Source: Prorocentrum cordatum
Lineage: Eukaryota
Assembly: GCA_963575745.1 (NCBI GenBank)
Contig: CAUYUJ010000225.1
Location: forward strand, 868,001-932,000
Direction: 5' to 3'
Length of the DNA stretch: 64,000 nucleotides
In this document: in pieces, positions 15,112 to 62,852 of the stretch
Layout: each line of letters opens with the position of its first letter
Position numbering within the stretch: position 1 is the stretch's first letter
Made by a program: the position numbers and the translations under genes
The notes under the pieces: model-generated
The model's database searches: none
What the model was told of the DNA's origin: nothing
What the model saw: the letters and a program-made list of their open reading frames with translations, nothing else

Positions 15112-15143
<32 letters not shown>

Positions 15144-15702: not shown

Positions 15703-15736
<34 letters not shown>

Positions 15737-15855
15737 CACTAGTGGTAGTAGTCATACGGGTCGTAGTACTGGTAGTAGTGGTAGTAGTAGGAGTAGTAGT
15801 AGTAGTAGTAGTAGGCGTCGTAGTAGAATGCGTAATGGTAGTATATGTATTCGTG

Positions 15856-15888
<33 letters not shown>

Positions 15889-15919
15889 ATAGTAGTAGTA
15901 GTAGTAGTAATTGTAATAA

Positions 15920-15954
<35 letters not shown>

Positions 15955-16033
15955 ATAGAAGTAGTGGTAGTACTAGTAGTAGTAGTAGTAGCAGTAGTAG
16001 TACTGGTGGTGGTGGTGGTAGTACTGGTAAGTG

Positions 16034-16066
<33 letters not shown>

Positions 16067-16070
16067 ATAC

Positions 16071-16103
<33 letters not shown>

Positions 16104-16105
16104 CA
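14255..16105. repeat. Second (TAG)n degenerate array, paralogous to part of 9895-12830
   Basis: Shares the same interruptions, e.g. gtcttaatcgtaagaaatggtag and gaattcgtaatatcattaataggaag. Confidence 0.9.
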
Positions 16106-42424: not shown

Positions 42425-42524
42425 NNNNNNNNNNNNNNNNNNNNNNNNNNNNNNNNNNNNNNNNNNNNNNNNNNNNNNNNNNNNNNNNNNNNNNNNNNNN
42501 NNNNNNNNNNNNNNNNNNNNNNNN
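42425..42524. other. Assembly gap (100 N) between (CAT)n and (CCT)n microsatellites
   Basis: Run of N; contiguity across it is not shown by the sequence. Confidence 1.
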
Positions 42525-44319: not shown

Positions 44320-45350
44320 CCAGGGCTCGTTCCACCGGGCCGCCGTCGCGGCTCCTGAGCTCCAGGGCTCGCTCCACTGAGCCCCCAGAGGGCCGCAGGG
44401 CTCGTGCCGCTGGGCCCCCGTCGTGGCCCCCGAGCCTCAGAACTCGCTCCACTGGGCCCCCAGAGGGCCGCAAGGCTCCTTCCCCACTGGGCCGCCGCCA
44501 TGGCCCTCTCCGGCCCCCAAAGGGACGCAGGGCTCGTTCAACTGGGCCCCCCAGAGGGCCCCCCTGGACCACACAGGGCCGCAGGGCTCGTTCCACTGGG
44601 CCGCCGTCGTGGCCCCCGAACCTCAAGGCTCGTTCCACTGGGCCCCCGGACGGCCGCAGGGCTCGTTCCACTGGGCCGCCGTCGTCGCTCCCGAGCCCCA
44701 GGGCTCGTTCCACTGGGCCCCCAGAAGGCCGCAGGGCTCGTCCCGTTGGGCGGCCGTCGGACCCCCATGGCTGCCGTCGGGCCCCCAGAGAGCCGCCAGG
44801 CTCGTTCCACTGGGCCGCCGGCGTGGCCCCCAAGCCTCCAAGCTCGTTCCACTGGGCCCCCAGAGGGCTCGCTCCACTGGGCCGCCGTCATGGTCCTCCC
44901 TGGCCCCCACAGGGACGCAGGGCTCGTTCCACCCAGCCGCAGTCGAGCCCCCTGGAGGTCTCGTTCCTCTGGGCCGCCGTGGTGGCTCCCGAGCCTCAAA
45001 GCTCGTTCCACTGGGCCCCCAGAGGGCCGCAGGGCTCGTTCCACTGGGCCCCCGTCGTGGCTCCCGAGCCCCAGGGGTCGTTCCACTGGGCCTCCAAGAG
45101 GACCGAAGGGCTCGTTCCATTGAGCGGCCGTCGGACCCCCTGGCTCCCAGAGCCCCCCTGGCTCCCAGAGCCCCCCTGTCAGCCGTCGGGCTCCCAGAGG
45201 GCCGCAGGGCTCGTTCCACTGGGCCGCCATCGTGGCTCCCGAGCCCCAAAGCTCGTTCCACTGGGCCCCTGGAGGGCCGCGGGGCTCGTTCCACTGGGCC
45301 GCCGTCGTGGCCCCCCGGCCCCCGCAAGACCGCAGGGTTTGTTCCATTGG
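44320..45350. repeat. GGCTCGTTCCACTGGGCC minisatellite with alternating 42 + 33-bp subunits (degenerate related tract at ~52440-52990)
   Basis: Core motif at 44584, 44626, 44659 and onward. Confidence 0.85.
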
Positions 45351-46541
45351 GCGGCCGTCGCGCCCCCCGGAACCGCCTGGCCCCCGTTGGGCGAGATTCC
45401 TCGAGGAACTTCGATGCCCAGGAATCGCTCCACCGAGGGTGGGAGTGGGAGACTGGGTTCGCTGCTTCTCTGCAGAGGCAACCCCGAAGGGCCGACGGGG
45501 AAGCGTATGCTTCTGTACAAGAGGACAGAGCATCGCAGGCGCGGGAGAAGCCAGTCCAAGCAGGCATTTGTTCGCCTCGGCCTTAGGGCGGCGCATGAAC
45601 GCAGCTCAGAAGACGCTCCAGAAGTTGAGCGCAGCCAGTAAGCGGGAACGCGCGGCGAAGGATCTGCGGGCCGTCGCGCGGGAAATGCGCAGCGGCGCGT
45701 CCGCTTTGAGTCGCGCCCACGACGACGGCAGCCCATGGGCCGCGACGACGGCGGCCACAGAGCCTCTGGAGGGACCAGTGCGGCCTCGGATGCCCTGGTT
45801 GTTGGAGCAAACAGTGACAGCTTGGAGGCAGCACTTCGATGACGAGCAGATTGCGTACATGCTGCAGCCGACGAAAAATCAACGCAGGGGCGAGGGGACA
45901 CGGGAGGATGGCGAGCCCCCTCCTCCTCCTCCTCCTCTCCTCCTCCTCCTCCGCCTCCCGTTTCCTCTTCCTCTCCTCTTTCCTCCTCCTCCTCCTCTCC
46001 TCCTCCTCCTCTTCCCCCCCCACCTCCCCTCCTCCTCCTCCCTCCTCTCCTCCCTCCTCCTCCTCCTCCTCCTTCCTCATCCTCCTCCGCCTCCCCTCCT
46101 CCCCTCCTTCCTCCTCCTCCTCCTCCTCCTCCTCCTCCTTTTCCTCCTCCTCTCTCCTCCTCCTCCTCCTCCTCCTCTCCTCCGTCCTCCTCCTCCTCCT
46201 CACCCCTCTGTTTCCTATCCATCCTCCTCGTTCCTCACCCCTTTTTCTTCCTTCCCTGAAGGCCCCCCCCCCCCCCCTTCCCTCCCCACCCTTCCTTCCT
46301 GAAGAGGGGGGGGGGGCTGCGAGGAGGATGAGGACGTGGAGGAGGAGGAGGAGGAGGAGGAGGAGGAGGAGGAGGAGGAGGACGAGGAGGAGGAGAAGGA
46401 GGAGGAGGAGGAGGAGGAGGAGGAGGAGGAGGAGGAGAAGGAGGAAGAGGGGGGGGAAGAGGGAAGGAGGGAAGGAGAGAGGGCAGGAGGAGGAGGAGGA
46501 GCGAACGTCGCCTGAGAGGGCGCGTCTGTCTGTGAGCCGCG

Positions 46542-49500
46542 CTACGGCGCGCCGGCCCCGCCCGACAGATCAGCGGGCAGCGCCAGTGCACGGCGAGCGG
46601 CTGCAACGGCGGTCGTCTGCTTGCTGTAGGTCATTGGGACGTCGTGGTCCTTCGTGAGGTGGTAAGTCCTGCTAGCCACGGAGAACCTGGCGATGCTGTT
46701 CGGGATGCCGTTCTCGCCATGGAACGGCTCGGTCAGCTCGGGGAGGCCGAGCCTCGTCATGTTGGTGCTCAGCTGGCCGCGCGGGAAGCTCAGCTGGTGC
46801 CACGTCCGTTCACATACTAAGTAGTGCTGGATGTTGTCGTCGGCGTGCAGGCACCCGAAGTGGCACGGGCGCTGGGTCGGGATCACGTGCGTCCTGTGCG
46901 AAGTCGTCCACGCGCCCGTGAGGACCTTGAAGGCGCTCCACAGCCTGGAGGGCGGCATGGTCGCGAGGTGGGTGCGGAGGCGCATCCACCGAGCGGGGAG
47001 ATCATCAGGAACTTGCTGGACTTGATGGGGATCACGATGTGAGTCAGCGTCGGCAGGTGGGTCTTCGGTGCCCATGTCGTCGTCGTCGCGGCGAATGTCG
47101 TCAGGGTCGGCGTCGGGCTCCAGCAGAGGCAGGATGTGAGCAATCCAGCGGCGTCCGGCACGGTGTTGGGCGGCCTCGTGGCTGAGCAACGAGGTGCGAC
47201 TGCGTGGCGATCGGCTGCGTGGCGACTCGCCCTGGGCTTCTGGGCGGGCCAGGCGGCGCTCCAGGAGAATGCGTCCAGGGCCGCCCACGCTTGATTGCAC
47301 ATGTCGACAGCGATGCGGCGTCGTTGGGTGTGGGTGGTGTACAACGGCTGGAACAGGTCGGTGCTGAGTAGCTCGTACAAGGAGGTGACGCACCACGGCC
47401 TCCAGTCCTCTTGGCGGTTGATGCGTCGGTCGTTCGTCGGGCGGTCAGGCAGCCAGTGCGCGGACCACGAGCGCGCCCTGTTCAGAAGGCGCTCTTGGGC
47501 TCGTTCAGCTTCACGTCGCGGTCCAGATGGCGGTCATCGTGTAAGTTGGCGGGCAGGGTCCAGCGTAGGATACCACGCGATGAGGCGGCGCTTGACGGTG
47601 CCAGGCATGGTGTCGACGTAGAGCTGCTCGTCCAGCGACTTCATGTAGGCTTTCTGCGGCGCATCTTGGCAGTATTGCGGTGTTGATGGCGATCGCGTTG
47701 TTGAGATAGGCGAGAGGCGTGGCGTTGAAGGATGGCTATCCTGCTCTCGCGGTGCGCTTGTGGATGGCGATCACGGCGGCTCGCGCGCGGGGCCAGGGCC
47801 CAGCCGTGCGCGTCAGGCGCTCGAGACGTGATCCTTCGCAGTCGGCGAAGAAGGTGGAGTGGATGACGCCCTCGAAGCGCTGGACGATGGCGGTCTTGAT
47901 CTCCCAGCAGTCGTTGCACCGCGCGGCTTGCAGTGCAGTGGTGACGGGAAGCTGGTCGCATGCGGTGTCGCAAAGTTCGCGATGTGCGCGTCTCCACTCT
48001 GTCACAGTGGTAGACGCCGTTCTCAAGAGAGTGGCGGCCAGGTAGTTCTCGATGCCAATGGGGGCCTCCACGTTCGTCCAGAGCGACATCGCGAGGACGT
48101 CGGACGTGGCGAAGCTGGAGGGGGCGACGCGCAGCAGCCTGTTGATGGCCTGCAGCTCCTTCTGCAGGACGCCCTCGGGCGGTTCGAAGAGCTGGGCGAC
48201 GTAGCCCAGGCGCGTGGCAGCGGCGACGTTGTACAGCTTGATGCTTTGCTGGATGGGGGCGCGCGAGGCAGCGAGCTTCTCCGCGCGATCCCACCACTTC
48301 ACTGCGGGGCCACGCCATTGGTCAGCAAGCGTGGCGCCTGGGCCCACGTAGATGCCAAGGTAGCGGGCTTTGGACTCAATCTTGAAGTTGAACCATGGGG
48401 CGTGAGCAGCCGCGAGGACGCGTCGCATCTCGGCTACGAGGTCTTGCGATGGGAGGGCCCAAATCGGGACGACGACGCACTTCTTGGCCTGGAGCTGGAG
48501 GCCTGCTAGGGTCGCGGCTGCGATCATGCGGGGGCGAGCGCGCTGATGTCGGCCAGCCCGGCGAGAATGATGCCGAGGTCGTCGACGCCGGTGTTGATGA
48601 GCCCGCGGTGGATGGCGTTGAGCTCGCGGCTGATGGCGACGATGACGGGGTCGAAGGCGAGCGGCCAGATCGCGCCGCTTAAGGGCCACCCCTGAGCAAC
48701 GCCCGACGCAGCGATCAGGAGTCGGCGACGTTCTCCCCCCAAATCGAGAAACTAGGCGGGCCAGAAGTAGCATGCCTGGATCAAGCGCATCACGCGGCCG
48801 CGGATGCCCCAGCGCCCGAGAACGTTCCACATCCACTGGTGGCCGGGGCCGGGGAATGCGGCTGCGATATCCATGGTGACGAAGACGGGCATGTCGGAGG
48901 ATGCGGATGGGGAAAGGCTGTGTCGACGCGCGGTGGCGTCCACGATGACGACGTTGTTCAAAAACTGGCGGCCGTTGACGAAGCCCTGCTGCTCGGGGGG
49001 CGTCTGGGCTGCAAGGGCGCGGGGCTGGCGGTTGGCAGCGGGCGCCAGCAGCTTCGCGTCCGAGCTCTTCATTGCAAGCGGGCAAAGGCAATCAGGGAAG
49101 CGCGTGCACTCCGCATTGCCAGATGGCTCGTCGCCTGTCGGCAACATGGCCATGAGAGAGAAGTTCAGGTCGTGCGGGATGTTGTGAATGGCAGCGATGT
49201 CGTAGCATGCGTCAGCGAGGGAGTCGAAGCTGTCGGGAGCGCGGAGCCAAGCTCGGTATGGAAGTCCGCCAGGGCCAGGGGCTGAATCCCCAGCGAGGCG
49301 CGCTGCTTTCTCAAGCGCCTGCCCATCGGGGAGTGATAATTCTGCTCGCTGGCGCCGGGGGAATACAGAGTCGAGGTAGTCGGTGAGACGCTTCTCGCCC
49401 GCGTGCTTCTCGGCGAACACAAGGGCCCAGTGACGCATGACGGCCTGGTGCATGGCGGCAGGGTCTGTCACTACGTTGGACGAGTTGCCGACAGCGATCT

Positions 49501-50940
49501 TGATGCCAGTCAGCACGAGGCGCTTGGAAAACAGCTTCCGGAGTTCACCGCGGTAGCCTTCTCGCGTGGGGCGCTGGCGCTACTTCTGGCCGAGGGGAAC
49601 GTTGTTGGCGGCAATGGCAGCTCGCGAGCGGGCAGCTGAGAGTGCTTTGCGCTCATCGCTGAGGCTGGCGTGCGTGGTGTCAGCAGTCGTGGTAAACAAT
49701 GCCATGTCGTTGATGCTGACCGTGTTGCCGTCGATCTTCAGGTGAGGGTGCCCGATCTCGGCGTTCTCGATCAGCATCTTCGCGAGAGGGACATTCTGGC
49801 ACCAGACTGCAAGGGCGATGCTGCGCAACGCAATGGCGCGAGTCTCCTTGGAGGCGCTCGCAGTCTGGGACTTCAGCTCGGACTTCAGTCTTGGCGAGCG
49901 CATCGCGCGCCCGGGCGGCTGCGACTTGCACCGCGACCTTGAAAGCGCGCCATCTAACAATCGGAGTGAGCGGCGTCACGTCGATGGTGGCGAGGATCTT
50001 TTCGATGATGCTTGTAGTGATCCGCGTCGGCGATGTAGGCGGGGACGCCACGCTCGGCGGCTGGCTTGGCTTGCGGCGGCGGACGCGGAGGCGCGTGATC
50101 TTGCGGTCGCTAATCGGGCCCCTGGCGTTCTCGAGGGGGGCGTCGTCGGCGACGTAAATGGCCCCCATGGGAGGCGCGAGGTGGCTCGGCAGGTTGATCA
50201 AGCAGCGGTCGATCGTTGATTCACTCATGTTGCCCGCGGCTCTGCGCGTCGTAGACGTGGAGGTGATCTCGATCATGTCGCGAAACAGCGAGCGCCAAAA
50301 GACAGGATGGCACTGGTATCTCTGCGCAGCGGTGGTGTCGGAGTCGACGGGGGCATTGAATGACTTCCGGGGGAACTCGGACACGTTGAAGTCACGCACG
50401 ACCATGAAGAGGCGGCGTTGAGGCTGTTCGTCAGCATGCTGCCGAAGTACTTGCCATTGGTCGCGGAGGTGGGGACGGTCGGCTGGCGAGAAGCCGTAGT
50501 TGTGGACGTTGAGGATGGTGCCTTCGCACTGGAGGCTGGCATCCGTGACGCGCAGCCAAGCGGCGCGGCCGTGGATGACGACCTCGAACCTGGTATGAGG
50601 CCGTTGTTCAGGTGGTAGCTGTTGCTCTCTCTCTTGTCGCACGGGACGAGGAAGCCGATGCCGCCGGCGTTGGCAACGGGCACATCGTTGGCGATCGCGG
50701 GCGAGTGGAACGGTTTGCACGGGTGCTGGGTCGAATTGGCTAGGAGAATGAGGTCGCCAAGGGATCCATGCGTTTCTTGAACAGCGAGAAGAGCGCGTTG
50801 GCAAAGGCAAGTGGAAGCACGCGACGTTTGTCTTCGCGGCGCTGGTCAGATTGCCCCAGGGGAGCTCGGGTTTTCCAGAAAGCAACGTTGAGGCCGTCCT
50901 GAGAAGGCTGCAGGAGCCACGGGCTCCAGCGGTGGCTAAA
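46542..50940 (-). pseudogene. Element A ORF2: APE endonuclease + reverse transcriptase + C-terminal CCHC; several frameshifts and stops
   Basis: APE: AFWKTRA, GGIGFLV, LNVHNYG, VRDFNV, STIDRCL, ISDRK. RT: SAPGPGGLPY, QQGFVNGRQF, MDIAAAFP, GVAQGWPLSG, GVDDLG, RYLGIYVG. C-terminal CHFGC..DNIQHYLVC; stop TAG at 46542-46544. Confidence 0.9.
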
Positions 50941-51975
50941 GTCACTGCGCAGCCGCGAGGGCGTCCGCGAAGTTGGAGGCGAACTCGGCGTTGATCTGTC
51001 GCTGCTCGTCGTCGGTGAAGCCGCGGTCCATGGCAGCGTTGGACCACTGGATCCCGGTGGGTTCGTCAGCATGGGCGCCGATGAGCAATCGAACAAGAGC
51101 GGCCCCACGATTAGCAATGTAGCCAAGAGTTCTGTGCGCGCGGAGGTCGGCGTCGGGGATGGCGTTCTGCATGATTTTGGCGAGGCGTTTGAGTTGCACT
51201 TCTGTGCGGACGGCTTTCGGGCTTTTGCCTGCTGAAACAAATAGAGGGATATGCACACCATTGCCCAGAGTGATAGTAAAACTGCGCCATTCTTGTTTCC
51301 GTTGCGTAGAGCACTGTGAAGACGCTGAGCACGTGGTTCTGCCACGACGATGCCGCCGCTGACCTGGGACGAGTGACGCTTGGCGGGGCTGGCGGTGTTG
51401 AAGATGACAATGTCTTTGGTGATTTCGGCTTTGGCAAACCATTCTGCGAGGGCGCGCTCGAGCTCGGGCTGGTTGAACTCCTGTGGGCTGCTGCGCCCGA
51501 ACGTTGTGGGGTCGGGGTCCCTGTCCCGCGTGCCAAGGCCCTCGAGGTTGAGCGCGGGTGCCCGTGCTTCTGCGGCTGTGACGATGGCTTCAAGCTTTGC
51601 GACGCTGGTTCTGAGTTCGACATTCTGCTTCTCGAAGTCGTTGGTGCGCTGCGTGACGCTGTGGATGCTGCGCTCCGTGGCTTCGTGACGTTGGTTGAGC
51701 TCGGACGTGATCTTCGTGATGGACGAGAGGAAGTCTTGGCTGGCTTGTGCTGTGACAGCACGTGCTGTGGCTTCGAACTTGGCGCTGGCGTCGGCGATTT
51801 GGGCGGCCATGGTCTCCTCCAGCTGCTTGTGAACGTGAGCGGCTAGGTCATGCACTGCGAGCTTCGCTGCACCGTCATGCCATGGATCTTGTTGACGTTT
51901 GCCACAGTCGAGATCCTGTCCGTTGGGGAGGAAAGCGAGTGGTCCTGCCGCTTGTGGAAAAGCGTGCGTTCCCAT
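50936..51975 (-). pseudogene. Element A ORF1 (coiled coil + L1-ORF1p-like domain), frameshift near 51300
   Basis: Heptad-rich segment ELNQRHEATERSIHSVTQRTNDFEKQNVELRTSVAKLE and C-terminal LFVSAGKS..RTEVQLKRL align with element B ORF1 (LFISPDKN..RREVQCKKL). Start uncertain (ATG 51975 or 52152). Premature TGA at 50942-50944, just before CTT TAG. Confidence 0.75.
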
Positions 51976-52152
51976 GGAAATACAATGGCCCACGCCAGCC
52001 ACCCAATATCGCGCGTGAAGGCTGCTGCAGGCGATTGTAGAGCCGAATATGAAGCTCAACCAGCAGGGCAGCTGGAAGGCGTGGCGTGGGAAATGGGTCC
52101 TTAGCTGTCCCTGGACCAAGGGTCTCCGTGCTCTGCCACGGGGCGAAGTCAT

Positions 52153-52174
52153 CTTGAGCCAAAATGGCTACGAA
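52153..52174 (-). other. Genomic copy of the dinoflagellate spliced leader (21/22 match) at the 5' end of element A
   Basis: Minus strand TTCGTAGCCATTTTGGCTCAAG vs DCCGTAGCCATTTTGGCTCAAG; abuts the TSD. Confidence 0.93.
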
Positions 52175-55030
52175 AGGGCAGGAGGAGGAGGAGGAGGGGG
52201 AAGAGGAGGAGGAGGAGGAGGAGGAGGAGGAGGAGGAGGAGGAGGAGGAGGGGAGGAGGGAGGAGAGGAGGGCGGGAGGGAGGAGAGGGGAGGGGAGGGG
52301 AGGGGAGGGGGGAGGGAGGGAGGGGTGATGGAGGGAGGATGGAGAGAAGGAGGGAGGGGGGGGACGAGGAGGGACGAGGATAGGGGGAGGTAGAGGGACA
52401 ATGACCTCGAGATGTGCCACTTCTCGCCGTTGGGGGGGGCTGCAGGGCTGGTTCAACTGGTTCGCCGCCCAGGCCTCGTTCCAACGGGCTTCCGTCGGGA
52501 TCCGCGAGCCGCACGGATCGTTCAGGCCGCAGGACTCGTTTCACAGGGGTCCCGCAAAGTTCGTTCTACAAAGAGGCCCCAGGCCTCGTTCCATTGGGTG
52601 CCCGTCAAGGCAGGGGGCTGCGGGGCTCGTTCCACGGGGGGGCTCGTTCCACAGGGGGACCGGAAGGCTGGGCCCACCGTTGTTCCTGTCTGGGTCCACG
52701 AGCTTCAGGGCACGTTCCACAGAGGCCACAGGGCTTGTTCCATAGGGGTGGGCTGGTTCCACAGAAGGGCCCCCAGGCATGTTCCACTGGCCTCGTGAGG
52801 CCCGCGAGCGCCAACGCTGTTTCGCAAAAGGCCGCGAGGCTCGCTCCACGACGGGGCTCACCGATGGCCGCGGAGGTCGCTTCACTGAGGCTCCAGGGCG
52901 CTCGGCCGCGAGGCTCGTTCCACTGGGGTCGGAGGTCCGCAGAGACCTCCGTGGACTCGAGCGAGTGGCTCTTCGGCTCGCTCCACAGGGACTCTTCTCG
53001 GGGGCCGTGGGTCTCGTGGGGGGCCGGCGAGGCCACGCGAACTCCTGCCGAAGCATGCGGGCCACCGCGGAAGGCCTTGTGAGCATCGTTCGTGAACGGT
53101 CTGGAGAGGATGCTCTTTCGGTCGCGTCCGCGAGCGAGGAGCGCAGGCGGAGACAGAAGCTGTCCGGGGCACGGAAGCAAACCTAATTAGCTGCAGGGCG
53201 CAGAACAGGCCGGCCGGGCCAGGTCGCACAGCGGCCGCTGGGGCCTGGAGAGGATGCGCGCAGCGTCAAGAACTCAACATGGCAACGTCCTGTTTGAACT
53301 CGTCGAGCGTGAGTTTCTTTAAACGCCGCAGCAGCTGGAGTGCGAGCCCAACCCACAATCGGACGAGCAGTGGAGGTATCATGTCGCCTGTGCCCATATA
53401 ACTACGGTTACCCCGCTGTTCCAAAGTGTTCTCCAAGATGGTTCAAGACAGCTCGATCTTATCCTGATCTTGTTCTTTAACCGCTGCGGCTCGCCCCCCC
53501 TTCCACATTCTCCAGCAATGGCCTGCGCCACTTGAACAGAAGGAAACACAATTGAAAATTCATCCTCCTACGCTCTCTCACCATCACTATTTCCCCCCCC
53601 CCGTTCTCCTCTGCATCTGCCCTCCGCGTGCACCAGAGAGCCGATAAGCCAATGCACCAATATGCCGCTCAAGCATATCGGCGCGAAGGAACCAATAAAC
53701 CGATACGCCAATATTTCAATATGCTGTTCACGCCTATCCACTCCAACCTACTCACTCCCCCTCCTCCTCCCCCCCTCCTCCTGCTCCTCCTTCTCCGCAA
53801 CTTCAGCACATGGGTCAGTGTACCAATGTGCCGCTCGAACCTATCCGCGCGAACAAACCAACAAGCCGATACACCGATCTACTAATGTGCCGTTCAAGCG
53901 TATCCCCTCCATATCCCCTCCCTTTCCAGAACGGGACCGGTACGCCGATGCGCCGATATTCCGATATGCCGATATGCCGATACGCAGATCGCGGCAGTCA
54001 GCGCCCTGGCACCAATATGCCGATAAGCTACTAATGCGCTGTTCAAGCCTACCCCCTCCATATCCCCTCCCTTCCCTGAACGGGACCGGTGCGCCGATAC
54101 GCCGATATGATACACCGATATACCGATATGCCGATATGCCGATACACCGATCGCGGCAGTGAGCGCCCTGGCACCAATAGGCCGATAAGCCGATATGCCA
54201 CATTGCACGAAATCTGCATATAGGCATATCGGCGCAACGGCGCCGATACATCGAATCGGCACATCGGCATATCGGCTCGGCGACGCCAAAATGCGAAATC
54301 GGCACGTTGGTGTATCGGCTCCGCTGCGCCGAAAAGGTACACGGGTGCATCGGCGTATCGGCTCAGCAGCAGGGGCGGTTGCTCCATGCGGCCACCCTCC
54401 GCTCTCCTCTGGAGGGCACGCGCGAAGCGCCTTTGGAATATACAAACGTGACTGCACCTCGTTGTTTTATCGAGCGGAAATCTGCACGCCCTGCGCGAAC
54501 TTGGTTGCAGGGGGGACCTCGTGAACTACGAGAGGAACCCTGAGCCCAAGCCCTCTGCAGGGAAAATGGCGGCATCGCGGAAAATCACGATCGGCCCCCA
54601 AACCCACCTGCTCTGCAACATGAGTCGTTCGGGATCGCGCTGTGATGGTCCTGGGGCCCGCCGACATCGGCACCCCGCCCCCAGGAGATCAGCGACGTGC
54701 AAGGACGGGCGCCAGCAGCCCCGCTGGGCGCACGCCTCTGGCCTCCAGTGGGATGGAAGAAGGTGGAGCTCGGAATCGTGGAGGCGCTGAAGGTCGTGCC
54801 CTAGGCCCTGGTGGCGGAGGTCATGGACAGGCCCGCAAAACTACGTGCATAACTTTAACCGAAGAAAGGTGTAAACTAATGCGCTTCGCCGTCGGAGGCG
54901 CCTGCCCCAGGGCGGCTGGAAAATTTATACCCTGACGTGCCACCCTATAGGGATGCAAACTCTCTAGCCGCCCCTGGACGGGCGCCCCCGGATACGGAAC
55001 AGTTTATCTCGTACCGTTCGCCCGCTAGTG

Positions 55031-55199
55031 TTGACCCTGGGTAAGAGTGACCTTTGGTGCGCGGCTTTTTGGAGGGCGCGGGGGGCCAAACCTGGGTGCG
55101 CAAGCCGCTGCTCCTGCTTCGTGTTCAGCCATCTAGGGACCCATCTGCGCCCGCACCAAAATCTCACTCCAGCGAAAGGTCACTCTTACGCCAAGTCGA
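55031..55199. mobile_element. ~170-bp MITE-like element
   Basis: Perfect 15-bp inverted repeat gtaagagtgaccttt (55041-55055) / aaaggtcactcttac (55175-55189); paralogue at ~37500. Confidence 0.65.
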
Positions 55200-56788
55200 T
55201 CGTAAGTACGCGGCTCGCAAGACTGCCCGGTGTGAAACATGATCGACCCACGAACCAGGAAAGGAATATAGAAATGTAACGCATGGCAGCGTTTTCAAAG
55301 ACACCTGATTGGGTGACGGGCACATGCAATGCTGAGTGTATCGATCTTGATGTACCCTGCCGAGGGCTGTGCTGTGCTGCGCCGTGCTGAATTGCGATGT
55401 GCCATGCCGCGATTGTGCTCTGTATATAGCGTCGTGGATCGAGTCCTCCTTTGCATCCGAGTCCTGACCGAACTGATCTGGATCTTAAGCTCGAGCTGCC
55501 TGAACACATAGTAGCTGCCCCAGAGCTAATTGACAAGGGGACGTGCCAGGAGGACGCGCCGCGAAACGTCTCAAGGGACGCGCCAGGCGACGTGCCAGGG
55601 GACGTGCCATGGGGTCGCACCGCGGGACGTGCCAAGGAGACGCGCTACGGAACGTGCCAATGGATGTGCCACGGGATGTGCCAGGGGACGCGCCACGCGA
55701 CGTGCGAGGGGGACTCGCCAAGGGACGCCCCACGGAACGTGCCAAGGAACGTGCCAAATTGCAATGCTGAGTGTATCGATCTTGATGTACCCTGCCGAGG
55801 GCTGTGCTGTGCTGCGCCCTGCTGAATTGCGACGTGCCACGCCGAGATTGTGCTCTATAGCGTCGTGGATCGAGTCCTCCTTTGCATCCGAGTCCTGACC
55901 GAACTGATATGGATCTTAAGCTCGAGCTGCCTGAATACATAGTAGCTGCCCCAGAGCTAATTGACAAAAGGACGTGCCAGGAGGACGCGCCGCGGAACGT
56001 CTCAATGGACGCGCCAGGCGACGTGCCAGGGGACGTGCCATGGGGACGCACCGCGGGACGTGCCAAGGGGACGCGCTACGGAACGTGCTGGGGACAAGCG
56101 TTTCGCTCGAGACATCCTGTCAAAGTTCTCATGCTAGACATCCGCCTGAACGACCTGGACACGAGAAAACAAACGCTTCGCTCAACACATCCTCAACACA
56201 TTCTCATGCTAGACATCCGCCTGGGCGACCTGGACACGTGAAAACAAGTGGTTCGCTCGAGACATCATCAACACACCTTCATGTGAAACGTCCGCCTGGG
56301 TGACGTGGGCACGTGAAAACAAGCGTTTCGCTCGAGACGTTTTCAACACCTCCGCATTCTAGACATCCGCCTGGGCGACCTGTACACGTGAAAGCAAACG
56401 TATCGCTCGAGACATCATCAACGCATCCTCTTGTTAGAGATCCGCCTGGGCGACCTGGACACGTGAAACCAAGACACGTGGAAACAAGCGTATCTCTCGA
56501 GACATTCTCAACACATCCTCATGCTAGGCATCCGCCTGGGCAACCTGGACACGCGCGAACAAGCGTCTCGCTCGAGACTTCCTCAACACATCTTCATGCT
56601 AGACATCCGCCTGGGCGACGAAGGCGCGTGAAACCACGCGTCTCGCTGGAGACGTCCTCAACAAATCCTGGCGCTAGACCTCTGCCAGGGCAACCTGGAG
56701 GCGTGAAACCAAGCGTCTCGCTCGAGACATCCTCAATACCTGGGCACGTCGCTCGTACAAATGGGCGCCACAAGGGTCTCGAGAGAGC

Positions 56789-59700
56789 CTACAGCGCACG
56801 AGGTGCATCGACGAGCGCCATCGCTGCCAGTCGAATGTGAAAGGGGATACGTGCTCATCCCAACCTCCGCTGGGCGAGACCGAACACGCATGGAATTGTA
56901 ACAAGGAGAAGCAAGAACCATCGACCCCACTTGCACGATGGTCGGCGCCCCGTCCAGCCCGAGTCTGGCCGCGACGCTCTCCGAAGCGCCCGCAAGACCA
57001 GCGACGCTCCGCGACCAAAGAATAGGGCATCGAAGGTAATGAGCGAAGGTGTCGCGCTGATGCGCGCACCCGCACTCGACAAGACAGTCACTCATACCCG
57101 CATGGACGCGCAGCCTCGCGGAGGTGAGCCAGCCCCCACAAAGAATCTTTACAACCGCCGACTGCCACGCGGGAGAGAGGGGCTCCAGCAGGGCTCAGAG
57201 CGGAGGCCATGGGGTCCCTCGGATGAGGGGCCAATCACGTCTGGAGCCGCCCCTCGATGGCGAGGTGGAAAGAATCGGGAAAAAGAGCAGCACGGAGCGA
57301 GGAGGCAAGAACACGCTGAAGCTTGAATCGCGAGTGACTGGCGACGGCGGCGGCGCGAGCCTCATTCACTTTTAGACGTGCCTGCGTCGCAGGACCATGC
57401 AGCACACTGTCCACTGGCTGCGCCCCAGGTGGTGGGCGGCGGGCGAAGTCGTGAGCGGCCCTGTCCAGCTACTGAACCGTGGGCCGCAGCTTCCAGAACG
57501 GCGGAGATAGCCACCCCCGTCCAACGTCGAGCAGCGAGCCGTGGGAGCACGCCTCTTCTTGTAACCATCCAATAAGGAATCGCCAGTTAGTCACCGTTTC
57601 CTCCGCCGACCTCATTCATGAGTATAGCCGTGCCACGCGGCATCATAGACATGGGGCGGATGTGCGACCAGTTGGCTAGCGAGAAGATGTCGGCACGAGA
57701 CAAACATTGCGGCGGCAGATGCCACACCTTATGCAGCGCTCAAGACTCCCGCGCCAATGAGACCTTAGGCGTAGGATACTGTTGTTGTAAATGCCCCATG
57801 ACTGGCAACACGTACATGTTATAGATGTCAGTGGCTGTGGACACTGGAGCACCCGACTTGGCGAGCTCCAGCACACGCAACGACCACTTCGCAGCCACCT
57901 TGCGCCAGATACTGCGCTCGTCCGCCGCGGGGCCCACCTGCGCACCCAAGTATCCCCCAGAGTCAGCGATCTTCATGGACGCCCATGGAGGCACGTGCTC
58001 CATAAGCCATTGACGAGTCTCCTTTTCCATCACCGAAGAAAATTCACCCTCAAGCGGAATGATGACGCACTTGCGAAATTTGAGCCCGAGGCCCCCGAGG
58101 GCGTCTGCAGCACGGAAGACACGAAACATATCCTTCAAAAGAGAACGGCGTTGCAGCGTCGCCCCAACATCGTCGGCACAAACACCGACCGCCGAGCGGC
58201 CACATGAGTGAAGCAGAACCTGCATCGCCTGCACGAAAGGGTTCATCGCGATAGCCCAGAGCGCCCCACTGGATGGGCACCCCTGAGCCCAGCAAAAAGA
58301 AATGCACAAGACGTGCTGCTGCAAGCCAGCGGCCTGCACGCATGCCGTCGGCAACCATTGCAGCGAGGCGAGCAACGCGAAGATGCCATCCTCAACCCCC
58401 GCGCGCGAGAGCGACTTGAGAAGCCAGTCGTTCTCCAGGGACGGAAAGGCGCCCCCAAAGTCGTGCAACGCCATAACAGGATGCGCATCTTTACGCTGGA
58501 AGCCACATGCCCCCGCAACTGTGTCCAACAATGTGATATTGTTAAGAAAGTTTCTGCCGACCAGGAAGCCCCTCTGAGCCGCGGGAGAGGTCGCCGCCGC
58601 CGTCCGTGTGAGCTTCATGTTGAAAGCACTCGCCACAAGTTTACAATCAGATTTTTTCAGCGCCAACGCTCTCGTAGTAGATGCCGACCTGAAGGCCCCA
58701 GCGGCGTCGCCCGGGTCCTCCCCCCCCTTTGGTAAGAAAGCCATGAGATGCTCATTCCAGTCCGTCGGCGGTGGAAGACCAGCAGCCAGCTCGACGGCGA
58801 TCTCCTCCAGCGACTGCATGCCCAATGACGACCTGCGCCACGCCTCATACGGTAACCCGTCGGGCCCAGGAGCCGATGGCCGAGCACGACGAGCCGCCTC
58901 CATAAGTCGAGCAGCCGCCGGGGGGAGCACCTCGGAGAAATCAAACTGGGTGCCAAACTTCTCAAGATACTTATCCGAAAGCTGCGCCCAGTTGGAGCAC
59001 CTCGGCTTGTGCTGAAACACGGGGCCCCAGTGGCGACGCAGCTCTGTGACCATGTCTTTCTGCGAGTCCACCACTTCACCATCGCCAGGGAGACGGATAC
59101 CTTGAAGCTTGAGCGCCCGAGCAAAGGGAGTCCACAGCGATGCCCTCCTGCGCAGGGCACGACGTTGTGCATTAATGAATGAGAAGGAAGCTGCATCGGG
59201 TTTAGCACGAGCCTCACGCTGTGCGAGCGCCGCCTCCCGCTCCTCTGAGAAGGCCTGCTGCTCGAGAGTGACAGCACGAGCAAAAGCGATGGTGTCACGT
59301 AGCTCCACTAAGTCCCCAACCACACACACATGCTCGCGAGCAAGAGCCGATGAAGACAGGAGACGCCTCGCAAGTCGCGAATCATCTCTCCACACCGCAC
59401 GAGCCATAGAGCGAAAGACCATTAGTCTCGCTTCCGTCGACTGAGGGTTGCGAACCAATCGAGAACGCACCATCCGAGCGGCCTCCTTCATTATATTCTC
59501 AGTGACCCTCCGCTTGGACGCCGAGGTGAGAGAGTGCCAGTCCACTTCCGACGCCATATTCTTGATGAGCCGAGCATAGTCGGGATCCTGAAAGATAAAC
59601 GATGGAATACGCTGAGTGTCTGGACGCGGCGCCGGCCGCGGCGCCAGAGTAAGCAAGACAGGGGAGTGATCGCTGATGCCCTTCTCGAAGAGAAACCCGG

Positions 59701-60505
59701 GAAAGTCTGGAGTAGAGACCGACATAGTCCATTGAATGGCTTCCCAGCTCTGAGACGATACAAAGACACGGTCAATGTGCGTCAACTTCGGTTGTTGCCC
59801 CTCCTGCGCGACGTAGCGGGTGGGCATCTCATTGTCCACTTCGAGGAGCAAAGCAAATATACGTTTCCATTCAGCTTCAGCCACATGCGGCGCAACGTCC
59901 GAGACAGGCCTGCGACGGTCGATCTCGGGAGCGCGCGGATACATAGGCAGAGCAGCGTAGATATTGAAGTCCCCCAAGAAAATGATAGAAATCCTGTCGG
60001 GCGCCGCGTTTGCGGGCGCCGCGTCTCGAGCGACCCTCTGCCGAAGCGATTGCACCTGTTGTCTCGATATGTTATAATTGTGAACATTGTAAATAACCGT
60101 GGACGCCACAGGACAAGAGTCGTGACTGAAACTAGAAATGCGAAGCCTCTGAATCCTTCCTGGCACCAGCTCCTCATGCCAGAACCTTGCCCGCTGATGG
60201 GCTCCACTCTGAGAACATGGAATGATAATCGACACACCACCAGTATGTCGCTGCGTGCCAACAGAAGAGAAAGCAATATGTAGGATGTGGAGCTTGAACA
60301 TGTCCTGCTGAAGCTCCACCTCCGTAGCGCGGACCTCTTACAGTGCCATGATCGTGCCCCTCGAGAGAAACTGAGACAAGTACTTAATGGTGTGCTGACG
60401 TGTGTGCAGGTCGTGATGCAACAAAGCTCGAGTGTTCCACGTTGCGAACGAAAGCGGGGCCTTCAGCTCACTGGGCGCCTTCCACGGGGCAAAGCGGCGG
60501 CTAAA
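56789..60505 (-). pseudogene. Element B ORF2: APE endonuclease + reverse transcriptase + CCHC; nonsense codons at 60338-60340 and 57740-57742 plus distal frameshifts
   Basis: ATWNTRAL, IMAL*EV (probable LQE with CAA>TAA), GGVSII, YNVHNY, LGDFNI, THIDRVF, ISDHSPV; SAPGPDGLPY, QRGFLVGRNF, HDFGGAFPS, AQGCPSSG, VCADDVG, GYLGAQVG; CLVECGC..DTFAHYLRC. Probable stop TAG at 56789-56791. Confidence 0.92.
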
Positions 60506-61715
60506 GACTCCACGCGACCTTCTCGGATTCACCGAAGAGGCTGTTGAAGGCAGCGACCATGGCATCCTTGTCTAAACCAGCATCATTGATAAGACGATAA
60601 TTCCACTCCAGGGAAGACGCCTGCGTGGGGTCATCTGGGACGAGGATGCGGACGGCTGGGGTCGACGCCCGATATACAACTCCCTGAGATCGGTCGGCCC
60701 GCCATCGACCAGGAAGGTTGGTGCTCTTGACGAGCTCGAAAAGCTTTTTGCACTGAACCTCGCGGCGGATATGTTGCCCGTTCTTGTCTGGACTGATGAA
60801 GAGCTCATGCGCCTGCGACTCGGCATCGCGGGCCTCGAACCTGCGCCATCCTCCACCGCCTGGCAGCTTGAGTGCCTTGTGAGCGTGGACAACATGCTTC
60901 GAAGCCAGCCCAGGCGCACCTTTGAACGCGACCACAAATCGCCGAGAAGGAGAATCACCCACAACATGCCACTGATCATCCTTGAAGCCAGCGGCCTCCA
61001 GCCAGGGAAGAACAGCCTCTTTGACACTGGAAGCAGAGACCGCAGCCTTAGCAGAAGCCACGAAGCAGGTGCGACTAGGCTCCCGCGTGAAGCCCGCGAC
61101 GTCGGCGTAGTCCGACTGCGGGGCGGCCTGCTCACAAAGATGGAGAGTGTGCCTGAGACGATCCATTTCGGCTGCCATTTTGTGATGAGCCTGCTCCAGC
61201 GACGTTTGCCTCTGGTTGAGCTCCCGATGACGAAGGGCAGTCTCCTCGTGCTTGGCCTCCTGCTGCGCCGCAAACTTGCGAAGCGCCGAAGCCGTTTTGT
61301 CCGCCAGCTGGGTGGCCAGAGCAGACGTAGTGTTATTGACAGAGGAAAGGAAATCAACCTTGAAATCCGCCACCAAAGCTTCCAACTCGAACCCGCACAC
61401 GAATGCGTTGGGGTCGAGGGCGACTGGGGTGGCGGTGCCGCCAGTGTTGTTGTCGGTCTCGCCAGGCTTGTTAGTAGCATCCCACGGGTCGCAGGCCTGC
61501 AAGGGATCGACAGGACCTGCAGCCCCAAGACCATCCACCAGCACGTCGGCGTCACTGCCGTCCTCGTCACGGGTCTTGGTGCGCTTGCCCTCAGGGGTGT
61601 CCGTAGGAGACCTTTCACTGGCTGCAGCAGGGGCCCGTTGCGGGCGTCTGGACTTGCGACGGGCAACCCTCTGAGAGCCAGCAGGCTGAGAAGCAGCAAC
61701 AGAATTGGAAGCCAT
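60501..61715 (-). CDS. Element B ORF1, intact 404 aa (basic N-terminus, coiled coil, L1-ORF1p-like RNA-binding region)
   Basis: Open from ATG 61715 to TAG 60501-60503. Lies 5' of the APE-RT ORF, has a heptad-rich middle and is homologous to element A ORF1. Domain identity is inference. Confidence 0.85.
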   Translation of the reverse strand: MASNSVAASQPAGSQRVARRKSRRPQRAPAAASERSPTDTPEGKRTKTRDEDGSDADVLVDGLGAAGPVDPLQACDPWDATNKPGETDNNTGGTATPVALDPNAFVCGFELEALVADFKVDFLSSVNNTTSALATQLADKTASALRKFAAQQEAKHEETALRHRELNQRQTSLEQAHHKMAAEMDRLRHTLHLCEQAAPQSDYADVAGFTREPSRTCFVASAKAAVSASSVKEAVLPWLEAAGFKDDQWHVVGDSPSRRFVVAFKGAPGLASKHVVHAHKALKLPGGGGWRRFEARDAESQAHELFISPDKNGQHIRREVQCKKLFELVKSTNLPGRWRADRSQGVVYRASTPAVRILVPDDPTQASSLEWNYRLINDAGLDKDAMVAAFNSLFGESEKVAWSL

Positions 61716-61882
61716 GACTGCGGGTACAGGGTGCACAGGGAACGAGACGTGACTGACAAGTCAGGAGGCGCTGGCCTCAGCACAGTCGTTAGATATGAGA
61801 TAGCAGCTACGCCCGTGAGAGGCGCACGTGAGATACCGTGGGCCGCGCCTCCCACGGACAAGTCTGAGCGAAACACTTCGGA

Positions 61883-61918
61883 CTTGAGCCAAAATGGCTT
61901 GAGCCAAAATGGCTACGG
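61883..61918 (-). other. Tandem DinoSL (61898-61918) + relict SL (61883-61897) at the 5' end of element B
   Basis: Minus strand CCGTAGCCATTTTGGCTCAAG-CCATTTTGGCTCAAG, exact matches; abuts the TSD. Confidence 0.97.
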
Positions 61919-62259
61919 CTCAATACCTGGGCACGTGAAAACAAGCATTTCACTTGAGAGATCCTCTGAACTCTGGTCCCCAGGAGAGGACAATCTATAA
62001 GACAAAACAAGCGTTTCGCTCGAGACATCCTCAACAAATTCTGAAAAACAAGCGTTTCGCTAGAGACATCCTCAATTTTTAATTCCCCAGCCCTACGCGA
62101 CCTCGTTATTTATCGCAAAAGAAATTCGCCGGCCCATCAGCCGTCAAAACCGGGGGTAAACCTCTAAAAGAGAACCCTGGGCCTGTGCCCTTTCCGGGAA
62201 AAAGCGGCAACGGACTTGTCGGCCCGCCAGGGTGCACGGCGCGCGCCCTCTTCCTTGCG

Positions 62260-62852
62260 GAGGAGGGAGGGAGGGAGGAGGGAGGAGGGAGGGAGGGAGG
62301 AGGGGAGGAGGGAGGACAGAGGAGGAGGGGGGAGGGAGGAGGGAGGAGGGAGGAGGGAGGGAGGGAGGAGGGAGGGAGGGAGGAAGGAGGAGGAGGCAGG
62401 AGGGCGGAAGGGAGGGGAGGGAAGGAGGGAGGGAGGAGGAGGCAGGAGGAGGAGGAGGAGAGGAGGAGGAGGAGGAGAGAGGAGGAGGAGAGGAGGAGGA
62501 GGAGGAGGAGGAGGAGGAGGAGGAGGAGAGGAGGAGGAGGAGGAGGAGGAGGAGGAGGAGGAGGAGGGAGAGGAGGAGGAGGAGGAGGAGGAGGAGGAGG
62601 AAGAAGAGGCGGAGGAGGAGGAGGGAGGAGGAGGAGGAGGAGGAGGAGAAGGAGAAGGAGGAGCAGGAGGAGGAGGAGGAGGAGGAGGAGGAGGAGGAGG
62701 GGAGGAGGAGGAGGAGGAGGAGGAAGAAGGAAGGAGGGAGGAGGAGGAGGGAGGAGGAGGAGGAGGAGGAGGAGGAGAAGGAGGAGGGGAGGAGGAGGAG
62801 GAGGATGGGGAGGAGGGAGGGGAGGGAGAAGGAGGGAGGAGGGAGGAGGAGG
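62260..62852. repeat. (GGA/GGGA)n purine microsatellite
   Basis: Visible run; similar tracts at ~45920-46500, ~52180-52390 and ~63815-64000. Confidence 0.95.

What the first reader, a model, noticed from the sequence alone, without database searches (positions are those of the whole stretch)
46502..61918. A LINE lineage whose integrated 5' end is the host spliced leader
Seen: two independent, divergent APE-RT retrotransposons each start precisely with a DinoSL immediately inside the TSD (A: 52153-52174; B: 61898-61918). Established: DinoSL is added to mRNAs by trans-splicing, and SL relics in genomic DNA mark reverse-transcribed mRNAs. Inference: the transposition intermediate is a mature, SL-capped mRNA copied to its very 5' end. 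Such an element may not need the internal promoter or self-cleaving ribozyme other LINEs use to define a 5' end, and could be cut out of read-through transcripts by host trans-splicing. This differs from SLACS/CRE/NeSL elements, which insert into SL-RNA genes. These RTs are also candidates for the machinery behind dinoflagellate SL-bearing retrogenes.
Basis: partly seen in the sequence, partly recalled or inferred. Interest (0 to 1): 0.92.

Follow-up and report, generated by a model that had tools for sequence, protein, structure and literature searches.

The report
Dinoflagellate LINEs that begin with spliced leader
Two decayed jumping genes of the LINE type in this dinoflagellate DNA each start exactly with the host's 22-base spliced leader just inside their insertion scars, and distant relatives from other samples do the same, so these elements copy themselves from ordinary trans-spliced messenger RNA.

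Summary
Element A (46502-52174) and element B (56750-61918) both lie on the minus strand. Each is a full-length but decayed ORF1 + APE/RT non-LTR retrotransposon. Exact target-site duplications of 22 bp and 18 bp bound them. Their first bases are the dinoflagellate spliced leader (DinoSL), and B also carries a 15-nt SL relic. These three SL copies are the only ones in the 64 kb window.

A and B share no nucleotide similarity and are about 32-35% identical in ORF2. They belong to a very large, diverse clade.

In 69 metagenomic loci encoding relatives, all 16 SL copies lie on the RT strand. Nine of the 16 loci with at least 1 kb upstream of ORF2 have an SL 1.0-1.7 kb upstream. None of the other seven shows a complete ORF1. 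Three of these loci also show TSDs abutting the SL.

The flanks are satellites or microsatellites, not SL-RNA genes.

Best reading: the element mRNA is trans-spliced like any dinoflagellate mRNA and is copied to its cap by target-primed reverse transcription. The relics show that parental transcripts began upstream of an already integrated SL, which means read-through transcription followed by re-splicing.

I found no explicit prior description. I rate it a new variant of a known kind, moderately to highly interesting.

The parts
46480..46501 (.). Element A target-site duplication, copy at the element's 3' side (AGGGCAGGAGGAGGAGGAGGAG)
   Evidence: Identical 22-mer at 52175-52196, seen. It lies in a GGA-rich microsatellite.
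46502..52174 (-). Element A, a full-length (5673 bp) but frameshifted non-LTR retrotransposon
   Evidence: Bounded by the TSD. ORF1 and ORF2 homology to B and to database relatives runs from about 51289 to 46650 in shifting frames.
46650..50836 (-). A ORF2 remnants: APE with the LLAVQETHG motif, RT, and a C-terminal Cys/His region, with several frameshifts
   Evidence: tblastn segments 50836-50645, 50606-50385, 49891-48533, 48518-47940 and 46967-46650 fall in frames -1/-3. Identity to B ORF2 is 32-35%.
50743..52152 (-). A 5' region with ORF1 remnants. An ATG directly follows the SL. The ORF1 C-terminal domain homology at 51023-51289 is in another frame.
   Evidence: WA_orf1 vs WB_orf1 at 1.7e-4; L002 ORF1 vs WA at 6.6e-8.
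52153..52174 (-). A spliced leader, 22 nt (T-TCGTAGCCATTTTGGCTCAAG), with one C>T change at SL position 2
   Evidence: It abuts the TSD with no extra base.
52175..52196 (.). Element A target-site duplication, copy at the element's 5' side
56094..56736 (.). 75-bp-period satellite, the insertion target of B
   Evidence: TRF finds 8.4 copies. The reconstructed empty site CCTGGGCACGT|GAAAACAAGC matches the unit consensus CCTGGACACGTGAAAACAAGCG.
56732..56749 (.). Element B target-site duplication, copy at the element's 3' side (CTCAATACCTGGGCACGT)
   Evidence: An exact 18-mer found only here and at 61919-61936.
56750..61918 (-). Element B, a full-length (5169 bp) non-LTR retrotransposon with no poly(A) at its 3' end (ends ...TTGTACGAGCG)
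56886..60565 (-). B ORF2 (APE + RT + C-terminal Cys/His region). The ATG at 60565 overlaps the end of ORF1. Defects: an in-frame stop at 60338-60340 in place of the Q of the LQEVHG motif, a stop at 57740-57742, and at least 2 frameshifts before the C-terminus.
   Evidence: Pfam RVT_1 at 3.7e-9 and Exo_endo_phos at 6.7e-4.
60501..61715 (-). B ORF1, intact, 404 aa: disordered N-terminus, long helix, RRM-like domain and C-terminal domain
   Evidence: Homologous ORF1s occur in 7 metagenomic loci. AF2 model has pLDDT 68 overall and 80-94 for residues 211-320. The top Foldseek PDB hit is the human LINE-1 ORF1p trimer 2ykp, E 4.1e-4, TM 0.16/0.28.
61716..61882 (-). B 5' UTR (167 nt)
61883..61897 (-). 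B SL relic (CCATTTTGGCTCAAG, SL positions 8-22)
61898..61918 (-). B spliced leader (CCGTAGCCATTTTGGCTCAAG, exact). SL base 1 may be the G at 61919.
61919..61936 (.). Element B target-site duplication, copy at the element's 5' side

Best explanation
A and B are two old, now defective, full-length copies of two different families within one large dinoflagellate clade of APE-type LINEs. Each has an L1-ORF1p-like ORF1 and an ORF2 with APE, RT and a C-terminal Cys/His motif.

Proposed cycle:
1. The element is transcribed as part of a longer host read-through transcript (inferred).
2. The host trans-splicing machinery adds the 22-nt DinoSL. The acceptor is either the AG at the 3' end of the already integrated SL, which regenerates a single SL as in A, or the internal AG of CCGTAG, which leaves SL + a 15-nt relic as in B. 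The structures are shown; the splicing step follows the established relic model.
3. ORF1p and ORF2p are translated from the SL-capped RNA (inferred).
4. ORF2p nicks a target, and target-primed reverse transcription copies the RNA to its very 5' end. The new copy therefore starts with the SL immediately inside a 17-30 bp TSD (structure shown).

The integrated SL thus serves both as the element's defined 5' terminus and as a portable trans-splice acceptor. Under this reading no internal promoter or 5' ribozyme is needed.
For: SL placement. The SL lies at the first base inside exact TSDs in A and B. These are the only SL copies in the 64 kb window.

Independence of A and B. They share no nucleotide similarity and 32-35% ORF2 identity. 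The clade has 4214 HMMER hits at E<=1e-3 and 232 at E<=1e-30, mostly about 30% identical.

Relatives. In 69 metagenomic loci (267,653 bp), 12 loci hold 16 SL copies, all 16 on the RT strand and 0 on the other. Nine of the 16 loci with at least 1 kb upstream of ORF2 have the SL 1056-1707 bp upstream of the predicted ORF2 start. Seven of those nine have an intact ORF1 starting 87-285 nt after the SL. An eighth, L069, has ORF1 homology broken across frames, and L051 has no recognisable ORF1. None of the 7 SL-negative loci retains a complete ORF1, and none has a degenerate SL at up to 5 edits. L012 holds a tenth SL-headed element, with 58% ORF1 identity to L015 downstream of its SL.

Further TSDs abutting the SL. 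L020 matches 25 of 25, L032 29 of 30 and L069 16 of 17.

Relics. SL + relic structures occur in B, L008 and L013, and in degenerate form in L051 and L012.

Different junctions. The sequence right after the SL differs between families, as expected if the SL is joined by splicing.

TSD length. TSDs of 17-30 bp fit APE-LINE integration, not integrase.
Against: No RNA evidence was obtained. Trans-splicing of element RNA and read-through transcription are inferred from DNA alone.

Neither A nor B has a poly(A) tail at the 3' junction. The template was therefore either not copied from its poly(A) tail or was not polyadenylated.

The family-level count comes from distant relatives (25-32% identity) in other organisms' contigs, not from copies of families A and B in this genome.

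Three of the five TSDs (A, L020, L032) are low-complexity repeats. In 6 of the 9 SL-positive loci no TSD was found; most of those contigs end near or before the expected 3' end.

Both window copies are dead, with stops and frameshifts, so activity of SL-headed copies is shown only by the relics.

No host genes could be recognised around A and B: 87 other ORFs of at least 150 aa gave no meaningful Pfam hit. Co-orientation with a host transcription unit is therefore untested.
Confidence: 0.85

Rival explanations
1. SL-headed copies are dead-end processed copies. The true master elements would carry their own promoter and 5' sequence upstream of a trans-splice acceptor. The SL-headed copies seen here would then be by-products that cannot propagate.
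For: Both window copies are defective. Processed retrocopies are usually dead on arrival, as stated generally in passages of PMC12014239.
Against: SL + relic structures in B, L008 and L013 show that an SL-headed copy was transcribed, re-spliced and re-inserted at least once more. Among the 16 loci with at least 1 kb upstream of ORF2, none showed a complete ORF1 preceded by anything other than an SL.
Confidence: 0.09
2. The SL was added by RT template switching. At the end of reverse transcription, the RT would jump from the LINE RNA onto an SL RNA or another mRNA's 5' end, as in U6/L1 chimeras (recalled). The element RNA itself would not have been trans-spliced.
For: LINE RTs are known to switch templates (recalled, not from a call). 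One locus, L013, has an irregular SL-SL junction.
Against: The junction is always the exact 3' end of the SL exon (…CTCAAG), with no SL-intron sequence. Relics are cut exactly at the internal AG, as the splicing model predicts. The pattern recurs in 12 independent element 5' ends.
Confidence: 0.04
3. These are SL-RNA-gene-specific insertions, like SLACS/CRE/NeSL. The SL would then be part of the disrupted target gene.
For: Only the presence of the SL sequence next to a non-LTR element.
Against: The SL lies inside the TSD. The flanks are GGA microsatellite, a 75-bp satellite and (TA)n repeats. No GT or intron follows the SL, and no SL half lies at the 3' flank. The endonuclease is APE-type. Rfam finds nothing.
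Confidence: 0.01
4. The integrated SL acts as a core promoter (its TTTT/TTTG motifs, as proposed for retrogenes in PMC5585692). Transcription would start at the SL, with no need for read-through.
For: The proposal appears in passages of PMC5585692.
Against: A relic made of SL positions 8-22 requires that the pre-mRNA contained the AG at positions 6-7 plus upstream sequence. Transcription must therefore have begun upstream of the integrated SL in the parents of B, L008 and L013.
Confidence: 0.01

Closest known systems
DinoSL-relic retrogenes ('recycled' processed cDNAs; Slamovits & Keeling 2008 as cited in PMC6050394 and PMC3942190; Song et al. 2017, PMC5585692)
   Same: A genomic SL sits at the 5' end of a retro-copied transcript. 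The truncated 15-nt relic arises from re-splicing at the SL's internal AG. Multiple rounds occur.
   Different: Here the SL-tagged unit is itself the autonomous APE/RT element, and it is seen with clean TSDs directly abutting the SL. The passages I read treat RT-encoding 'retrogenes' only as a GO enrichment ('RNA-dependent DNA replication'). They call the responsible RT unknown and suggest Ty1/copia.
SymbioLINE / LINEs of Symbiodiniaceae (de Mendoza et al. 2018, PMC5890265)
   Same: Dinoflagellate LINEs with ORF1 upstream of an Exo_endo_phos + RT ORF2. Many divergent lineages exist.
   Different: ORF1 here is an L1-ORF1p-like RNA-binding type, not a DNMT. The paper contains no occurrence of 'spliced leader' or 'DinoSL'. 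I could not compare sequences directly.
SLACS / CRE / CZAR (trypanosomatids) and NeSL-1 (nematodes), recalled and not from a call
   Same: Non-LTR retrotransposons physically associated with spliced-leader sequence.
   Different: Those elements insert site-specifically into SL-RNA genes using a restriction-like endonuclease. Here the SL is part of the element's own cDNA, inside the TSD, at unrelated targets, and the endonuclease is APE-type.
L1 (internal 5'-UTR promoter) and R2 / L1Tc (5' self-cleaving HDV-like ribozyme), recalled and not from a call
   Same: The problem solved is the same: defining a 5' end that is carried along in each new copy. The ORF1p fold (coiled coil, RRM, CTD) and APE+RT ORF2 are as in L1.
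   Different: The 5' end appears to be defined by host SL trans-splicing. There is no poly(A) tail at the 3' junction.

Membership tests
Non-LTR (LINE) retrotransposon, APE type | Reverse transcriptase domain of the non-LTR type | tested here: met
   Pfam RVT_1 at 3.7e-9 and 37 bits, above the 29.6 cut-off. Best PDB sequence hits are human L1 ORF2p at 6.3e-6 and R2 at 3e-5.
Non-LTR (LINE) retrotransposon, APE type | N-terminal apurinic/apyrimidinic-like endonuclease | tested here: inconclusive
   Exo_endo_phos at E 6.7e-4 and 19.9 bits, below the 24.5 cut-off. Alignment with relatives shows GDFN and SDH columns invariant and an LQEVHG motif, which in B is L*EV with a stop. A is QETHG.
Non-LTR (LINE) retrotransposon, APE type | Variable-length target-site duplications and 5'-truncated copies | tested here: met
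   TSDs of 22, 18, 25, 30 and 17 bp. Relatives L046, L061, L017 and L018 lack 5' parts.
Non-LTR (LINE) retrotransposon, APE type | 3' poly(A) or simple-repeat tail | tested here: not met
   A ends ...GACGTTCG and B ends ...TACGAGCG directly at the TSD. Some relatives end next to (TA)n or short A runs. Not all LINE clades have tails (recalled).
L1 clade specifically | ORF1p with coiled coil + RRM + CTD | tested here: inconclusive
   The AF2 model shows helix 108-197 and an RRM-like fold plus CTD at 217-394. The top Foldseek hit is the L1 ORF1p trimer at E 4.1e-4 and prob 0.99, but TM is only 0.16/0.28. No Pfam hit.
L1 clade specifically | RT phylogeny placing it within L1 | not testable with these tools
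   No reference set of LINE clades was available. PDB hits to L1 and R2 are too close in E-value to discriminate.
SL-RNA-gene-specific elements (SLACS/CRE/NeSL) | Insertion at a fixed site in an SL-RNA gene, so the SL lies outside the TSD and belongs to the target | tested here: not met
   The SL lies inside the TSD. The flanks are a microsatellite and a satellite. Rfam gives 0 hits.
SL-RNA-gene-specific elements (SLACS/CRE/NeSL) | Restriction-enzyme-like endonuclease C-terminal to RT (recalled) | tested here: not met
   The endonuclease homology is N-terminal and APE-like. The C-terminus holds only a Cys/His motif.
Dinoflagellate SL-tagged retrocopies | A DNA-encoded DinoSL at the 5' end, with relics truncated at the internal AG | tested here: met
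   A has a 22-nt SL. B has an SL + 15-nt relic. The same is seen in L008 and L013.

The most novel reading that the evidence does not exclude
An entire, very large dinoflagellate LINE clade is promoterless and depends on the host in an unusual way. Each copy is excised from host read-through transcripts by SL trans-splicing. The integrated SL, which ends in AG and contains an internal AG, acts as a self-renewing, portable 3' splice acceptor that also fixes the element's 5' end. The same ORF2p machinery, acting in trans on other SL-capped mRNAs, would be the long-sought source of the roughly 20-25% of dinoflagellate genes that carry SL relics.
Probability: 0.4. Interest if true: 0.85.

Novelty: new variant of a known kind. 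Interest (0 to 1): 0.66.

Why it matters
Dinoflagellate genomes are shaped by massive retroposition of SL-tagged mRNAs. The passages I read say the responsible reverse transcriptase is unknown and lean towards Ty1/copia (PMC5585692, PMC6050394, PMC3942190).

The autonomous APE-LINEs described here carry the SL at their first base inside long, variable TSDs. This shows directly that LINE-type target-primed reverse transcription copies SL-capped RNA to its 5' end in these organisms. It also gives concrete candidate proteins, namely ORF1p and ORF2p of this clade.

The question becomes testable. One can compare TSD lengths, nick-site motifs and 3' ends of SL-retrogenes with those of these LINEs. 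It also suggests a way for a LINE to define and regenerate its 5' end without an internal promoter or ribozyme.

Tried and rejected
- Whole-genome copy census: not possible, because no genome is held.
- Sequencing runs: the look-up of sequencing runs listed one DNA holder (share 0.23) and no RNA holder. No read-level evidence was therefore obtained.
- Earlier scan notes: none for this genome or these words.
- Protein Atlas: two requests did not complete.
- Viral-contig scan with the ORF2 alignment: 12 pattern matches, none confirmed.
- Word-indexed protein search: only 4 hits. The full HMMER search was needed.
- Pfam on ORF1: 0 hits for the B ORF1 and only scattered single-member weak hits among the 8 members.
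- Pfam on 87 other window ORFs of at least 150 aa: nothing meaningful, so host-gene orientation around A and B could not be assessed.
- Pfam on ORFs behind the non-LINE SLs in L016 and L020: nothing.
- TSD search: failed for L002, L008, L013, L015, L025 and L051.
- SL-RNA gene target hypothesis: rejected.
- RT clade placement: not attempted, for lack of reference sequences.
- One literature query was rejected for a syntax reason and not re-sent.
Full report
OBSERVATION

The dinoflagellate spliced leader (DinoSL; the motif is also given in PMC8045281) occurs three times in the 64 kb window, all on the minus strand. The sites are 52153-52173 (1 mismatch), 61898-61918 (exact) and an overlapping truncated copy at 61883-61897. 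Shuffles give 0 expected matches.

Element A. On the minus strand it reads TSD | T-TCGTAGCCATTTTGGCTCAAG | ATGACT. The 22-bp direct repeat AGGGCAGGAGGAGGAGGAGGAG sits at 46480-46501 and 52175-52196, so the element is 46502-52174 (5673 bp). The full 22-nt leader abuts the repeat with no extra base.

Element B. It reads ACGTGCCCAGGTATTGAG | CCGTAGCCATTTTGGCTCAAG | CCATTTTGGCTCAAG | TCCGAAG. The 18-bp repeat CTCAATACCTGGGCACGT occurs only at 56732-56749 and 61919-61936, so the element is 56750-61918 (5169 bp). B sits in a 75-bp satellite (56094-56736, 8.4 copies). Joining its flanks with one repeat copy restores the satellite unit. A sits in a GGA-rich microsatellite.

WHAT THE ELEMENTS ENCODE

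B has the following parts, all on the minus strand:
- A 167-nt 5' UTR.
- An intact 404-aa ORF1 (61715-60504).
- An ORF2 starting at 60565 that overlaps the end of ORF1.

The B ORF2 matches Pfam RVT_1 at 3.7e-9 and, below the Pfam cut-off, Exo_endo_phos at 6.7e-4. It has an in-frame stop where relatives have the Q of LQEVHG, another stop at 57740, and at least two frameshifts. After these, homology to relatives continues to about 56886, close to the 3' end.

A is more decayed. ORF1 and ORF2 homology run through shifting frames from about 51289 to 46650. A and B share no blastn similarity and 32-35% ORF2 identity, so they represent two families.

HMMER against 1.84 billion representatives finds 4214 relatives at E<=1e-3 and 232 at E<=1e-30, mostly near 30% identity. 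The best solved relatives by sequence are human L1 ORF2p (6.3e-6) and R2 (3e-5).

ORF1 has no Pfam match but is conserved among relatives. An AlphaFold2 model (pLDDT 68 overall, 80-94 for residues 211-320) shows a disordered N-terminus, a 90-residue helix, and an RRM-like domain plus C-terminal domain. Its top Foldseek hit in the PDB is the human LINE-1 ORF1p trimer, at E 4.1e-4 and prob 0.99 but with low TM of 0.16/0.28.

Neither element has a poly(A) tail at its 3' junction.

IS THE SL 5' END GENERAL?

No genome is held for this window, so I used relatives instead. A scan of metagenome contigs with a 16-sequence ORF2 alignment returned 69 loci totalling 267,653 bp.

- Twelve loci hold 16 SL copies (up to 3 mismatches). 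All 16 are on the RT strand and none on the other.
- Fifty-three loci have less than 1 kb upstream of the predicted ORF2 start and cannot be scored.
- Of the 16 loci that can be scored, 9 have an SL 1056-1707 bp upstream of the predicted ORF2 start: L002, L008, L013, L015, L020, L025, L032, L051 and L069.
- Seven of these 9 have an intact ORF1 starting 87-285 nt after the SL. In L069 the ORF1 homology is split across frames. L051 shows no recognisable ORF1.
- None of the 7 negatives retains a complete ORF1. L010 and L064 are cut by the contig end inside ORF1. L017 and L018 keep only the C-terminal part. L046 and L061 start within ORF2. L038 has an inverted ORF1 fragment. None has a degenerate SL at up to 5 edits. 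Two matches at 6 edits in L017 are at chance level, 0.8 per 4 kb.
- In L012 an SL downstream of one element's 3' end is followed by an ORF1 58% identical to that of L015. This is a tenth SL-headed element, in tandem.

Three loci also show direct repeats that end at the SL (1 nt before it in L069). These are L020 (25/25, an AT repeat ending ATT, element 4532-9775), L032 (29/30) and L069 (16/17). For the other six no repeat was found, and five of those contigs end near or before the expected 3' end.

The bases following the SL differ between families. L008 and L013 carry SL + relic(s), like B.

MECHANISM

Shown:
- Complete leaders at the first base inside 17-30 bp duplications.
- APE + RT coding capacity.
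- Relics cut at SL position 7/8.
- Recurrence across families that are 20-35% identical in ORF1.

Inferred:
- Element RNA is trans-spliced like other dinoflagellate mRNAs. Universal SL addition is stated in PMC6050394 and PMC11453091 (passages).
- The RNA is then copied to its cap by target-primed reverse transcription.

A relic of SL positions 8-22 behind a new SL means the parental pre-mRNA contained the AG of CCGTAG in the parent's integrated SL. Transcription must therefore have begun upstream of the element, that is, by read-through rather than from an internal promoter. Because the leader also ends in AG, splicing at that site would regenerate a single SL (as in A, L002, L015, L020 and L025). 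This point is my inference.

The lack of poly(A) suggests that reverse transcription starts at a defined 3' end rather than on a tail.

RIVALS

- SL-RNA-gene targeting (SLACS/CRE/NeSL, recalled) is excluded. The SL is inside the duplication, the flanks are unrelated repeats, no GT or intron follows, and Rfam finds nothing.
- Template switching onto SL RNA does not explain the exact exon-end junctions or the AG-cut relics.
- The idea that SL-headed copies are dead ends is contradicted by the relics and by the absence of any longer 5' form among the 16 scorable loci. It cannot be fully excluded without a census in the source genome.
- The SL-as-promoter proposal (PMC5585692) does not fit relic formation.

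LITERATURE

Four full-text searches, and the passages I read in the papers below, gave no description of a LINE whose 5' end is the SL inside a TSD.

- PMC5585692, PMC6050394 and PMC3942190 state that the RT behind retroposition is unknown and propose Ty1/copia, or presume LINEs.
- PMC5585692 notes that the GO term 'RNA-dependent DNA replication' is enriched among SL-tagged retrogenes. This probably reflects elements of this kind (my inference; its supplements were not examined).
- PMC5890265 describes Symbiodinium LINEs without any occurrence of 'spliced leader' or 'DinoSL'.
- I also read passages of PMC12014239, PMC11453091, PMC8045281, PMC3229502, PMC7789003 and PMC7245778.
- Slamovits & Keeling 2008, SLACS/CRE/NeSL, and the L1 promoter and R2/L1Tc ribozymes are cited from recall or second hand.

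VERDICT

RNA-level proof, a same-genome census and the link to retrogene formation remain open.

The result is a predictable consequence of universal trans-splicing, yet I found it nowhere described explicitly. It bears directly on an open question, namely which machinery makes SL-tagged retrogenes. I rate it a new variant of a known kind, with interest about 0.66.

Noticed in passing
L015 173, L020 4532, L025 612, L032 8132, L031 2523, L016 5509, L012 2382, L002 118: In the metagenomic relatives the DNA just 5' of the SL is very often a (TA)n or TA-rich microsatellite. This suggests a target preference for TA repeats, or insertion into the tail of another copy. The window elements instead sit in (GGA)n and in a 75-bp satellite.
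   Followed up: partly
L012 1353-2402; L016 3521-5529; L031 664-2543: Head-to-tail arrangement: the 3' end of one LINE, a short TA repeat, then an SL heading the next unit. In L012 the next unit is a LINE of the L015 family. L016 and L031 share similar sequence on both sides of the SL and may be the same locus in two assemblies.
   Followed up: partly
L020 1815-3817: A roughly 2-kb SL-headed insert with no RT or ORF1 homology and no Pfam hit. It is flanked by CGGGGTCGA (9 bp exact; 11 bp if the first CC of the SL is counted). It is a candidate SL-tagged retrocopy or non-autonomous element with a TPRT-like duplication.
   Followed up: partly
L016 5830-7323: The SL at 5509 heads a 497-aa ORF with a Cys-rich N-terminus, a helical middle and a poly-Q run. 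It has no Pfam hit and no similarity to the clade's ORF1. It may be another element's ORF1 or a retrogene.
   Followed up: partly
L020, L025, L032, L069, L013 (second copy): The SL variant CCGTATCC (G>T at the internal AG) recurs in the loci from one contig set. This variant lacks the internal acceptor AG, and these loci show single SLs without the 15-nt relic.
   Followed up: no
L020 4553-4600 vs L032 8153-8200: The first 50 nt or so after the SL are clearly similar (GTACTGTG..TACCGAATG...CCTACCAGGGGGTGGGCC), although the ORF1 proteins are only about 35% identical. This may be a conserved 5'-UTR signal.
   Followed up: no
window 8232-16168: Very large microsatellites: (TACTCAC)n of about 187 copies at 8232-9540, (TAG)n of about 996 copies at 9896-12891, and about 637 copies at 14255-16168. 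They cause extreme GC skew.
   Followed up: partly
window 46300-46501, 52175-52400, 62259-62600: Long GGA/GGAG-rich microsatellites recur around both elements. The high-GC stretch at 44-46 kb gives long ORFs in all frames, with no meaningful Pfam hit (one weak sub-threshold UBA_HYPK match at 43766-44887).
   Followed up: no
window 42425-42524: A run of 100 N, an assembly gap.
   Followed up: no
window 60501-60565: In B, the ORF2 ATG lies 64 nt upstream of the ORF1 stop in another frame. The overlapping ORF1/ORF2 suggests reinitiation or another non-canonical ORF2 translation mechanism.
   Followed up: no
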